Positions 56,353 through 57,005 of a DNA stretch of 64,000 bases are shown here, one piece after another. The notes under the pieces were generated by a model, which was given only the letters and a program-made list of their open reading frames with translations, had not been told where the DNA came from and did no database searches. Source of the stretch: Escherichia coli (lineage in GTDB: Bacteria > Pseudomonadota > Gammaproteobacteria > Enterobacterales > Enterobacteriaceae); NCBI RefSeq assembly GCF_030013595.1, contig NZ_CP122768.1; one strand, written 5' to 3'. Numbering within the stretch: position 1 is the first letter of the stretch; each line of letters starts with the position of its first letter. The position numbers and the translations under genes are program-made.

Positions 56353-57005
56353 GCCACCCACCCTTAAACGTTTTTCTGAGTCAATCTATGCAAAGAAAAG
56401 TAAATCGCAGTGATAGCGATTATCATTACGGCAAAGAAAAATACAAGCGGAATGTTTATAAAATGATGTTGGAATGTAAACAAAGAGAGGTAATGGCAGG
56501 GGATATAAACGATTATTCCAGGTACAAAGATGGGATTGTTTACAACGAGCCATGTGTTCTTGCCAGATGCCGCGTAAACGCCTTATCCAGCCGACAAAAC
56601 TGTCCAGACTCAATGCATCAGAGCTTCCATGTAAAACTGATAAGCGGGTGTATCAAGCAATTTCGTCCATCCGCGATTATCAAATCTAACTTTTTGCCCG
56701 GAACATAATAACAGCTCGGGTGTTGGTGGCGTCAAAGTCGCTGAAGCGTTCCCCGAAGGCCAGGGCAGCCCACATGGATGTGGGCTGAGGGCGCGTCTTA
56801 CAGGACATTACCTCGCGCCCGACCCGGTAGCCGAAGGGGATAAGCTGAAGGTACCGCGCAGCGGCGATTTTGTTCGCCAGAGCCCGGGGTGCAGGGGGTG
56901 GCGGCGATTGGCCGCCCCCTGCACCATTCAATTTATATGGCGAGGCACATTAAGGGAGCGCAACCCGCTGCTGAAGCCAAACAAAACCGCCGCAGGCTAA
57001 GTCCC

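What the first reader, a model, noticed from the sequence alone, without database searches (positions are those of the whole stretch)
56700..56930. GC-rich structured block in the efeU-putP intergenic region
A ~230-bp GC-rich stretch contains two strong hairpins: AGCCCACAT-GG-ATGTGGGCT near 56768-56787, and a roughly 15-bp GC stem with a small bulge at 56888-56925. It is not obviously REP/ERIC-like to my eye. It could be a small structured RNA, a repeat element, or the putP terminator region.
Basis: seen in the sequence. Interest (0 to 1): 0.3.

Follow-up and report, generated by a model that had tools for sequence, protein, structure and literature searches.

The report
Known TRIP1 intergenic repeat copy
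The GC-rich hairpin block between efeU and putP is a copy of TRIP1, a ~270-base repeat already described in E. coli; its function is still unknown, but its folded shape is kept across several genera of gut bacteria.

Summary
It is not a new element. It is the TRIP1 repeat (Rudd 1999; Li et al. 2024, PMC10888264) at the known "TRIP1b" locus: window 56718-56965, 41 nt after the putP stop.

The window holds the full-length form, found in 944 of 5426 complete E. coli genomes. K-12 has a 123-125-nt internal deletion here. The window copy has itself lost 11 nt, which removes one arm of a third hairpin.

Beyond what I could find published:
- The family also occurs in Klebsiella (at least 13 places in one chromosome), Kluyvera, Enterobacter, Pseudocitrobacter and Pseudescherichia.
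- A multi-branched fold of 70 pairs is kept with 24 compensatory pairs (98% of cells paired, against about 40% in slid controls).
- The element sits in either orientation at three loci.
- An IS110-family insertion sequence targets one of its loops.

No conserved ORF, promoter, terminator for putP, terminal inverted repeats or Rfam match was found. The most likely reading is a structure-constrained single-strand (probably RNA) module that also acts as a recombination substrate. Its function is unproven.

The parts
56718..56965 (+). TRIP1 repeat, full-length copy at the putP-efeU ('TRIP1b') locus. The + strand is the orientation used for all family alignments here.
   Evidence: nhmmer profile of 40 family members matches positions 3-262, E = 1.5e-69, and this is the only copy in the window. 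It is 90-97% identical to copies at dusC-yohP, lysO-aqpZ and putP-efeU in other strains. Its position, 41 nt from the putP stop and about 357 nt from the efeU start, agrees with TRIP1b as described in PMC10888264.
56727..56740 (+). 5' arm of the long-range closing stem (helix 1); pairs with 56865-56879.
   Evidence: Single-sequence fold. Consensus fold with 6 of 12 pairs showing compensatory changes, e.g. G-C/C-G 19:19. Column-to-window mapping.
56865..56879 (+). 3' arm of the closing stem (helix 1).
56741..56753 (+). 5' arm of helix 2; pairs with 56837-56850.
   Evidence: 3 of 10 pairs have compensatory changes. The 3' arm overlaps the pattern used to collect homologues, so its invariance is partly forced.
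56837..56864 (+). 3' arm of helix 2 (GGGATAAG...) followed by a small hairpin (helix 8: CCGC at 56854-56857 paired with GCGG at 56861-56864).
   Evidence: The search pattern GGGATAAGNNGANGGNACCNCGNAG lies here at 56837-56861.
56758..56764 (+). 5' side of helices 3 and 4 (GGCCAGG); pairs with 56823-56832. The window copy has one A.C mismatch (56762 with 56825).
56766..56787 (+).
   Evidence: 10-bp perfect inverted repeat. A-U/G-C covariation 18:22. The stem is fully re-coded while the loop AUGGAU is kept in the diverged partner subfamily.
56789..56820 (+). Inner hairpin (helices 6 and 7: GGGCGCG...CGCGCCC). In other genomes its loop region is the insertion target of an IS110-family element.
   Evidence: for the helix. 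IS junctions GGGAT|IS|ATGTTACCTC in L024, L025 and L058.
56888..56925 (+). One T.G wobble; followed by ATTCAATTTA.
   Evidence: 5 of 12 pairs compensatory. Terminator-like on the + strand only.
56917..56923 (+). Site of an 11-nt deletion specific to this allele. One unit of a CCCTGC...CCCTGC direct repeat is lost, which removes the 5' arm (GCGCTCC) of hairpin 3.
   Evidence: Alignments with K-12, strain BY63 and paralogues.
56954..56961 (+). Orphaned 3' arm of hairpin 3 (GGGAGCGC). In intact copies it pairs with GCGCTCC(C/T).
   Evidence: Helix 10 has 4 of 8 pairs compensatory in other copies. It is unpaired in the window copy.
56768..56890 (+). Segment present here but deleted in the K-12 'TRIP1b' allele.
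   Evidence: Window against K-12 alignment. PMC10888264 describes a 125-bp internal deletion.
56556..56592 (-). Neighbouring REP sequence. It is not part of TRIP1 but belongs to the same variable spacer.
   Evidence: Partial match to Rfam naRNA4 (REP-derived), E = 0.02.

Best explanation
The block is one copy of the known TRIP1 repeat of E. coli, at the known putP-efeU (ycdN) site. It is an undeleted ~250-nt allele rather than the 146-bp K-12 'TRIP1b' remnant, and it has its own 11-nt slippage deletion.

Shown:
- TRIP1 is a low-copy dispersed family in Escherichia.
- It also occurs, with more copies, in Klebsiella and other Enterobacteriaceae.
- What the family conserves is an intramolecular fold: a closing stem around a multi-branched core, then a GC hairpin, then a third hairpin.
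- Individual copies decay by deletion across the structure.
- Copies lie in either orientation in gene-end spacers.
- Copies are targets for an IS110-family insertion sequence.
- They are substrates for chromosomal rearrangement (Li et al. 2024).

Inferred mechanism: the selected unit is a folded single strand. Most likely (about 45%) this is an untranslated RNA module, transcribed by read-through from a neighbour or from a weak promoter of its own, and recognised through its conserved loops (AUGGAU, GGGAUAAG). The other readings are given as rivals. In this window it is not the putP terminator and encodes no protein.
For: Identity:
- 5425 of 5426 complete E. coli genomes hold matches, with a median of 3 places.
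- Paralogues at dusC-yohP and lysO-aqpZ are about 90% identical.
- K-12 has 3 places (H111), and its putP-efeU copy lacks 123 nt, as published for TRIP1a/b/c.
- Distance to the putP stop is 41 nt.
- G+C is 60-65%.
- The full-length allele is in 944 of 5426 genomes.

Fold under selection:
- 40 sequences from 6 genera give 70 pairs with 98.2% of cells paired, against 37-45% when partners are slid.
- 24 pairs have double changes, against 2-6 in slid controls; 0 of 500 shuffles reach the observed values.
- A ~57%-identical partner subfamily keeps the same helices with re-coded stems and the same AUGGAU loop.
- Orthologous TRIP1a in E. albertii is 95.3% identical to E. coli, against 88.9% for the adjacent lysO coding sequence.

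Single-strand bias: variable G.U occupies 47 cells in 15 pairs, against A.C in 14 cells in 9 pairs.

Not coding: frame-breaking indels occur between copies, and there is no conserved ORF.
Against: - No transcript data were available.
- No conserved sigma-70 promoter was found upstream, and no Rfam family matches.
- The strand test is weak: a sign test on positions gives p = 0.3, and the window copy's two private mismatches are A.C, which would be wobbles on the other strand.
- Both orientations occur at the dusC-yohP, aqpZ-lysO and alx-sstT loci. That fits a mobile or orientation-indifferent DNA element as well as it fits an RNA gene.
- Many genomes carry deleted or absent copies, so single copies are dispensable.
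- Homologues were collected with a pattern inside the element, and many are paralogues, so cell counts are not independent events.
Confidence: 0.88

Rival explanations
1. TRIP1 is a selfish, non-autonomous mobile element or its fossil, of the MITE/REPIN kind. The conserved fold serves its own propagation as single-stranded DNA or RNA, recognised by an unidentified enzyme acting in trans. Effects on the host (recombination, transcription barrier) are incidental.
For: - Copy number varies from 1 to 10 places in E. coli, and reaches at least 13 in one K. pneumoniae chromosome.
- Presence/absence and both orientations occur at the same three loci, with the whole spacer replaced.
- Klebsiella has a tandem REP-TRIP1-REP-TRIP1-REP array and REPs abutting most copies.
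- Head-to-head dimers occur in Kluyvera and Pseudocitrobacter.
- Copies sit in 'safe' gene-end spacers; only 1 of about 50 lies between divergent genes.
Against: - No terminal inverted repeats or target duplications were seen at filled-versus-alternative sites.
- Loci are stable across Escherichia species, and orthologues are far better conserved than neutral sites, which is unexpected for dead copies.
- No associated transposase was found.
- The one IS110 gene found inside TRIP1 is an independent IS, since it also occurs on a plasmid without TRIP1.
- There are no copies in phages or true plasmids.
Confidence: 0.3
2. It is an orientation-indifferent gene-end element like REP/BIME. The stable GC-rich structure in read-through RNA or in DNA stops exonucleases or RNA polymerase and insulates putP from the efeU promoter region.
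For: - It starts 41 nt after the putP stop, and most copies lie 20-120 nt from the stop codon of a neighbouring gene.
- In the E69-type aqpZ allele, TRIP1 replaces the canonical aqpZ terminator hairpin.
- Watson-Crick stems are kept, so both strands fold well: 94% against 98% paired, with z-scores of -3.9 and -4.8.
Against: - No hairpin followed by a U-tract was found on the putP strand.
- A simple barrier would not need a 70-pair multi-branched fold with invariant loop sequences kept across genera.
- K-12 and most strains function with a 123-125-nt deletion of the core.
Confidence: 0.15
3. It is a DNA-level site: a cruciform or protein-binding architectural element, or simply a recombination hot spot with no selected function.
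For: Li et al. document 156 rearrangements between TRIP1 copies. An IS110-family element uses a TRIP1 loop sequence as its target. The G.U asymmetry is not decisive.
Against: A long-range closing stem that encloses about 125 nt cannot form as a simple cruciform. Compensatory evolution in 24 pairs implies selection on intrastrand pairing. Recombination alone does not explain conservation above that of the flanking coding sequence.
Confidence: 0.07
4. It is a type I toxin-like or leader-peptide locus: a structured mRNA whose Shine-Dalgarno-like GGAG is hidden in hairpin 3 and is followed by a tiny ORF.
For: GGAGCGCAAC is followed 9-12 nt later by ATG or GTG in many Escherichia and Kluyvera copies. 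Examples are MMNQHITTS*, VINPNTSPS* and MNPKIQPPN*. The GGAG pairs with an upstream CUCC (helix 10).
Against: The ORF is absent in the window copy, in TRIP1d, in Enterobacter and in many Klebsiella copies. Where present, its length ranges from 2 to more than 27 codons and the peptides are not conserved.
Confidence: 0.02

Closest known systems
TRIP1 repeats of E. coli (TRIP1a-e; Rudd 1999, Res Microbiol 150:653, cited from PMC10888264; Li et al. 2024, Genes 15:236)
   Same: Sequence (90-97% identity to copies at the published loci). Locus (putP-ycdN/efeU, 41 bp after the putP stop). G+C of 62-65%. Predicted very stable 'double-Y' fold. Three copies in K-12.
   Different: This is not the 146-bp K-12 TRIP1b form, because the 123-125-nt core is present. 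The copy carries a private 11-nt deletion. The paper treats E. coli only and gives single-sequence folds. The cross-genus distribution and covariation reported here are not in it.
REP/BIME elements (and REP-derived naRNA)
   Same: GC-rich extragenic structured repeats at gene ends. Substrates for recombination. Targets of specialised insertion sequences (IS621 and IS1397 are cited from general knowledge). In Klebsiella they physically abut TRIP1.
   Different: REP is about 35 nt, a single imperfect palindrome, in hundreds of copies. TRIP1 is about 270 nt, multi-branched, in 1-13 copies, with no sequence similarity. The REP in this window is a separate feature (56556-56592).
ERIC/IRU, RSA (BEE95) and Box C enterobacterial intergenic repeats
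   Same: Low-copy, dispersed, intergenic, restricted to Enterobacteriaceae, and of unknown function.
   Different: By recollection ERIC is a 127-bp element-wide palindrome, RSA is about 152 bp and Box C about 56 bp. TRIP1 has no element-wide inverted symmetry. I had no reference sequences for these families, so the comparison is by size and architecture only.
REPIN/MITE-type inverted dimers
   Same: In Kluyvera, Pseudocitrobacter and one gut isolate, TRIP1 sits head-to-head with a diverged partner 43-60 nt away.
   Different: Each arm folds on itself, with its stems re-coded independently, rather than pairing with the other arm. No TIR or TSD was found. E. coli copies are monomers.
TwoAYGGAY RNA motif (Rfam RF01731, from memory)
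   Same: The hairpin-1 loop AUGGAU fits AYGGAY, and it is invariant while the stem covaries.
   Different: There is only one such hairpin per unit, and the Rfam scan at E <= 10 gave no hit to that family.

Membership tests
TRIP1 repeat family | Sequence similarity to TRIP1a/b/c (family members are 84-94% identical to TRIP1a) | tested here: met
   90.6-91.7% identity to the K-12-type dusC-yohP and lysO-aqpZ copies over about 210 nt. Profile E = 1.5e-69. The flanking parts are identical to K-12 TRIP1b.
TRIP1 repeat family | Sits at one of the five fixed loci; for TRIP1b, 41 bp after the putP stop and about 355 bp before the ycdN/efeU start | tested here: met
   The element ends at 56965 and the putP stop is at 57006-57008, so the gap is 41 nt. 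The element starts at 56718 and efeU starts at 56361, about 357 nt away (description).
TRIP1 repeat family | GC-rich (62-65%) with a very stable predicted RNA fold ('double Y') | tested here: met
   G+C is 0.60-0.65. Free energy is -135.9 kcal/mol, z = -4.8, with a multi-branched structure.
TRIP1b subtype as defined in K-12 | 146 bp long, with a 125-bp internal deletion relative to TRIP1a | tested here: not met
   The window retains 56768-56890. It is the undeleted allele of the same locus, present in 944 of 5426 genomes.
Intrinsic terminator of putP | GC-rich hairpin followed by a U-tract on the putP (-) strand just after the stop codon | tested here: not met
   The scan of 56300-57100 finds no such site on the - strand within 56700-57005. 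The only one inside the block is on the + strand.
REP/BIME | ~35-nt imperfect palindrome of the REP consensus | tested here: not met
   The REP-derived Rfam model (naRNA4) hits 56556-56592, outside the block, and hits nothing inside it.
Any curated RNA family (Rfam 15) | Covariance-model match | tested here: not met
   The best hits inside the block have E = 1.8-6 and 15-18 bits, against gathering scores of 55-80.
MITE | Terminal inverted repeats and target-site duplication | tested here: not met
   No terminal inverted repeats. At three loci with alternative alleles, the whole spacer differs and no duplication is visible. True empty sites were not available, so TSD absence is not fully established.
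Type I toxin / small-protein locus | Conserved small ORF with a start codon behind the sequestered SD | tested here: not met
   The ORF is absent or not conserved in most subfamilies and absent in the window copy.
Structured noncoding RNA (generic) | Fold conserved through compensatory changes | tested here: met
   24 of 70 pairs have double changes. 98.2% of cells are paired, against about 40% in slid controls.
Structured noncoding RNA (generic) | A transcript exists, with a defined strand and ends | not testable with these tools
   No expression data were available. No promoter consensus was found. The G.U/A.C strand test only leans towards the + strand.

The most novel reading that the evidence does not exclude
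TRIP1 and its diverged head-to-head partner form an unrecognised class of ~270-nt structured noncoding RNAs of Enterobacteriaceae, absent from Rfam. On this reading their multi-branched fold and invariant loops (AUGGAU, GGGAUAAG) are read by a host or mobile-element protein. Some copies would carry a boxA-like Nus-factor site at a fixed position 5' of the fold, protecting the untranslated transcript from Rho. TRIP1 would then be a functional RNA gene or module, or an RNA-dependent mobile element, rather than inert repeat DNA.
Probability: 0.3. Interest if true: 0.65.

Novelty: already known. Interest (0 to 1): 0.33.

Why it matters
For this scan, the block can be filed as a known repeat rather than a new sRNA or terminator. 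More broadly, TRIP1 has had only two dedicated papers and has no assigned function. The comparative evidence gathered here turns it from "a GC-rich repeat that causes inversions" into a concrete candidate for a conserved structured RNA or single-strand element:
- it occurs in six genera;
- 24 of its pairs covary;
- a re-coded partner subfamily keeps the same fold;
- an insertion sequence uses it as a target.

The candidate could be tested directly. It also explains why the putP-efeU spacer length differs among E. coli strains: there are at least three alleles, namely intact, minus 11 nt, and minus 123-125 nt.

Tried and rejected
- **Rfam scan at E <= 10.** Nothing relevant in the block; only a REP-like hit next door.
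- **Literature search by sequence strings.** No paper prints these sequences.
- **putP terminator.** No terminator-like site on the putP strand.
- **Own sigma-70 promoter.** None in the window. There is no positionally conserved -35/-10 in 45 copies.
- **Small ORF or type I toxin.** Not conserved.
- **MITE features.** No TIR or TSD.
- **Phage or plasmid origin.** No phage hit. All 34 'plasmid' hits are typed non-mobilizable and appear to be chromosomal sequence. Some records are 4.8-5.4 Mb, and the one small record inspected carries rimO.
- **The IS110-family gene inside Kluyvera TRIP1 as the autonomous parent of TRIP1.** Rejected. The same IS occurs on an IncFIB plasmid without TRIP1, next to the same 10-nt flank ATGTTACCTC, so it is an independent IS that targets that sequence.
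- **The partner subfamily as another known E. coli repeat such as RSA.** The partner type is essentially absent from E. coli. I had no RSA reference sequence.
- **Orientation relative to replication.** By reasoning only, the three K-12 copies are not consistently on the lagging-strand template.
- **BoxA-like motif.** It is strong in TRIP1c, TRIP1d and TRIP1a, and shuffles reach 10 of 13 matches only 1.1% of the time. It is absent from the window copy and from Klebsiella, so I keep it as a lead, not a finding.
- **Strand assignment by G.U versus A.C.** It leans towards the + strand but is not significant by position count.

Full report
**Setting.** The window is E. coli DNA. efeB, efeO and efeU lie on the - strand (53060-56361). 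putP is on the - strand (57006-58514) and putA on the + strand from 58871 (gene names from homologous annotated records). The finding lies in the 644-nt putP-efeU spacer.

**Observation.** Both hairpins exist as described. One is a perfect 10-bp inverted repeat at 56766-56787. The other is a 15-bp GC stem at 56888-56925, and its single irregular position is a T.G wobble. G+C rises to 0.60-0.65 over 56700-56950, from 0.35-0.49 to the left. The stretch folds much better than dinucleotide shuffles on either strand, with z = -4.8 on the + strand and -3.9 on the - strand. The two hairpins are embedded in a larger fold closed by a long-range stem (GGCGUCAAAGUCG with CGAUUUUGUUCGCC).

**What it is.** The block is not unique.
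- Megablast against 5426 complete E. coli genomes finds it in 5425, with a median of 3 and up to 8 places per genome. With blastn the maximum is 10.
- Copies about 90% identical lie between dusC and yohP and between lysO (ybjE) and aqpZ. K-12 has three places.
- The K-12 putP-efeU copy lacks 123 nt of the core.
- This is exactly the published description of the TRIP1 repeats: TRIP1a after aqpZ, TRIP1b 41 bp after putP with a 125-bp internal deletion, and TRIP1c after yohI/dusC. They are 62-65% G+C with a stable predicted 'double-Y' fold. They were first reported by Rudd in 1999 and surveyed by Li et al. in 2024.
- A profile built from 40 family members matches window 56718-56965 (E = 1.5e-69) and nothing else in the 64 kb.
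- The element ends 41 nt from the putP stop and starts about 357 nt from the efeU start.

**Alleles at this locus.** I saw three states.
- An intact full-length copy (e.g. strain BY63).
- The window allele, which lacks 11 nt. One unit of a CCCTGC...CCCTGC direct repeat is gone, which looks like slippage, and this removes the 5' arm of a third hairpin.
- The K-12 allele, which lacks window 56768-56890.

A query joining the locus-specific left flank to the part deleted in K-12 is covered at 80% or more in 944 of 5426 genomes, 350 of them at 99% identity or better. The window copy keeps 60 of the 70 consensus pairs. Hairpin 3 is lost, and there are two private A.C mismatches.

**Beyond E. coli.**
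- blastn against PLSDB hit 34 records. All are typed non-mobilizable and appear to be chromosomal sequence: several are 4.8-5.4 Mb, and the one small record I inspected carries rimO. They include a K. pneumoniae chromosome with 13 places.
- One pattern scan of one genome per species returned 40 loci. They come from Escherichia species, Klebsiella, Kluyvera, Enterobacter, Pseudocitrobacter and Pseudescherichia.
- There is no match in 50,697 phage records.
- In Klebsiella most copies have a REP sequence immediately to the left. One spacer holds REP-TRIP1-REP-TRIP1-REP.

**Is the fold selected?** I aligned 40 distinct copies. RNAalifold gives a closing stem, a multi-branched core and the GC hairpin. 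I replaced its weak 3' pairs by the GCGCUCC/GGAGCGC hairpin that the sequences suggest. On this structure:
- 98.2% of 2790 cells form standard pairs, against 37-45% when the 3' partners are slid by 1-3 columns.
- 24 of 70 pairs show changes on both sides, against 2-6 in slid controls.
- No shuffle of 500 reaches the observed pairing, double-change or covariation values.

Examples of covariation:
- G-C/C-G at 19:19 in the closing stem.
- A-U/G-C at 18:22 in hairpin 1.
- GGGGGCGGCGGC...GCCGCCCCC becomes GGGGGAGGAGGC...TCCTCCCCC in the GC hairpin.
- GCGCUCC/GGAGCGC becomes CGUUCAC/GUGAACG in hairpin 3.

Caveats:
- The homologues were collected with a 25-nt pattern at columns about 129-153, so invariance there is forced.
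- Many rows are paralogues or orthologues, so cells are not independent.

Independent support comes from a diverged partner (about 57% identity). It sits head-to-head 43-60 nt to the left of TRIP1 in Kluyvera, Pseudocitrobacter and a gut isolate. It keeps the same helices with re-coded stems (CCCACA/UGUGGG becomes UCCGCC/GGCGGA) and the same AUGGAU loop. This partner type is essentially absent from E. coli.

Orthologous TRIP1a in E. albertii is 95.3% identical to K-12, against 88.9% for the adjacent lysO coding sequence. In one Escherichia species the spacer is 99-100% identical while the flanking genes are about 91%. That indicates constraint, local recombination, or both.

**Which strand, RNA or DNA?** On the family's + orientation (the window + strand, antisense to putP and efeU), variable G.U pairs occupy 47 cells at 15 pairs. 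A.C, which would be wobble on the other strand, occupies 14 cells at 9 pairs. Pairing is 98.2% on the + strand against 94.2% on the - strand. This leans towards the + strand, but by position count it is not significant, and G.T is also tolerated in single-stranded DNA. No sigma-70 promoter consensus is present in the window or positionally conserved upstream in 45 copies. No conserved ORF follows the GGAG of hairpin 3. On the putP strand there is no hairpin followed by a U-tract.

A boxA-like sequence sits 31 nt before the closing stem on the + strand: AGCUCUUUAUCAA in TRIP1c, with 10 of 13 matches in TRIP1a and TRIP1d, and weaker in Kluyvera. Shuffles reach 10 of 13 in 1.1% of trials. The window copy and Klebsiella lack it, so I treat it as a lead only.

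**Behaviour as a genomic element.**
- At dusC-yohP, aqpZ-lysO and alx-sstT, different Escherichia genomes carry TRIP1 in opposite orientations between the same conserved boundaries. The rest of the spacer is unrelated, and in one allele the last codons of dusC differ.
- In K-12 the alx-sstT spacer holds a different GC-rich repeat instead.
- I found no terminal inverted repeats or target duplications.
- A crude neighbour survey shows the element almost never lies between divergent genes (1 of about 50). Its right end usually lies 20-120 nt from the stop of a convergent gene.
- Li et al. document 156 rearrangements between copies.

**An insertion sequence that uses TRIP1.**
- In two loci of Kluyvera genomosp. 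3 and in E. coli 64A:C, TRIP1 is split at GGGAT|GTTACC in the loop of the inner hairpin. The insert is a 1.37-kb element encoding a 316-aa protein with the Pfam domains DEDD_Tnp_IS110 and Transposase_20.
- The same element sits on an IncFIB plasmid without TRIP1, but next to the same ATGTTACCTC.
- It is therefore an independent, sequence-targeted IS for which TRIP1 supplies the target, not the parent of TRIP1.

**Mechanism.** The following are shown: identity as TRIP1; the fold and its conservation; decay by deletion; orientation polymorphism; IS targeting; and, from the literature, recombination between copies.

The following is inferred. What selection maintains is an intrastrand fold with specific loops.
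- My preferred reading (about 45%) is an untranslated RNA module, made by read-through or from a weak promoter of its own and recognised by a protein.
- Next (about 30%) is a structure-dependent selfish element, or its fossils.
- A REP-like, orientation-indifferent gene-end barrier (about 15%) and a purely DNA-level site (about 7%) are less likely. Neither explains a 70-pair multi-branched fold with invariant loops.

For this window specifically, the copy is partly decayed and antisense to both neighbours. Any function here is more doubtful than for intact copies.

**Verdict.** The element is already known, a TRIP1 repeat in the full-length allele of the TRIP1b locus. It is not a terminator, not coding and not in Rfam. 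Interest in the finding itself is low to moderate. The family remains functionally unexplained and is a reasonable candidate for a new structured-RNA family.

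Noticed in passing
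window 56556-56592 (- strand): A REP sequence lies about 125 nt left of TRIP1, seen as a partial match to the REP-derived Rfam family naRNA4 (E = 0.02). In Klebsiella, REPs directly abut most TRIP1 copies.
   Followed up: partly
window 56861-56874 and 56980-56993: A 14-nt inverted repeat (93%) links the 3' arm of the TRIP1 closing stem to the flank between TRIP1 and putP. The flank carries CAAAACCGCCG, a near copy of the 5'-arm sequence CAAAATCGCCG. It may be a remnant of a second, tandem copy, or chance.
   Followed up: no
window 56340-56708 (+ strand): A 122-aa ORF runs from inside the efeU start region up to the edge of TRIP1. RefSeq annotates a 100-aa 'hypothetical protein' (WP_001323669.1) in the equivalent place of another record (L007). 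It overlaps the efeU promoter region and a REP and is probably spurious.
   Followed up: no
window 55522-56361 (- strand): efeU is an intact 279-codon ORF here, whereas it is annotated as a pseudogene in K-12 MG1655 (L001).
   Followed up: no
L024:723-2104, L025 (same insert), L058:632-2014, L057:405-1721: A 1.37-kb IS110-family insertion sequence is inserted at GGGAT|GTTACCTC in a TRIP1 hairpin loop. The ORF is 316 aa with Pfam DEDD_Tnp_IS110 and Transposase_20. It occurs in two Kluyvera loci and in E. coli 64A:C. The same IS lies on an IncFIB plasmid next to the same ATGTTACCTC, and 'AT' is present at both junctions. TRIP1 is therefore a natural target of a sequence-guided IS.
   Followed up: partly
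L019:2189-2431, L045:5641-5883, L048:4072-4315, L038:1490-1686, L024:332-540: A diverged (~57% identity) TRIP1-like partner lies head-to-head 43-60 nt from TRIP1 in Kluyvera, Pseudocitrobacter and isolate MGYG-HGUT-00110. It has the same helices with re-coded stems and the same AUGGAU loop. It is essentially absent from E. coli.
   Followed up: partly
L002 vs L054 (dusC-yohP); L004 vs L026 (aqpZ-lysO); L012 vs L052 (alx-sstT): TRIP1 sits in opposite orientations at the same locus in different Escherichia genomes. The whole ~370-440-nt spacer is replaced between fixed boundaries. One dusC allele has different last codons and a 13-bp hairpin spanning its stop codon. The E69-type aqpZ allele lacks the usual aqpZ terminator hairpin.
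   Followed up: partly
L002:2466-2478, L012 (about 31 nt before the closing stem), L004: A boxA-like motif (rrn boxA is TGCTCTTTAACAA) lies at a fixed distance 5' of the fold: AGCTCTTTATCAA in TRIP1c, AGCTCTTTACAAA in TRIP1d and TGCGCTTTAATTA in TRIP1a. Shuffles reach 10 of 13 matches in 1.1% of trials. It is absent in the window copy and in Klebsiella.
   Followed up: partly
L055:2590-2720 (K-12 alx-sstT spacer): Where other strains have TRIP1d, K-12 has a different GC-rich repeat (CCCTCTCCCTTCCAGGGAGAGGGTCGGGGTGAGGG ... CCCTCACCCTAACCCTCTCCCC). It is possibly a Box C-type element, but I did not identify it.
   Followed up: no
L056:3582-3819 (K-12 ybaQ-copA spacer): Tandem repeats of about 100 bp lie in the spacer where TRIP1e sits in other strains. 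Related sequences (84-89% identity) occur in L047, L051, L028 and L007.
   Followed up: no
L029 vs L006: In Escherichia sp. E1V33 the aqpZ-lysO spacer including TRIP1a is 99-100% identical to K-12, while the flanking coding sequences are 90-92% identical. This suggests a short recent recombination tract confined to the spacer.
   Followed up: no
L008:1049-1773: Two TRIP1 copies lie in tandem, 437 nt apart and each preceded by a REP, in the K. pneumoniae mechanosensitive-channel-pcaC spacer.
   Followed up: no
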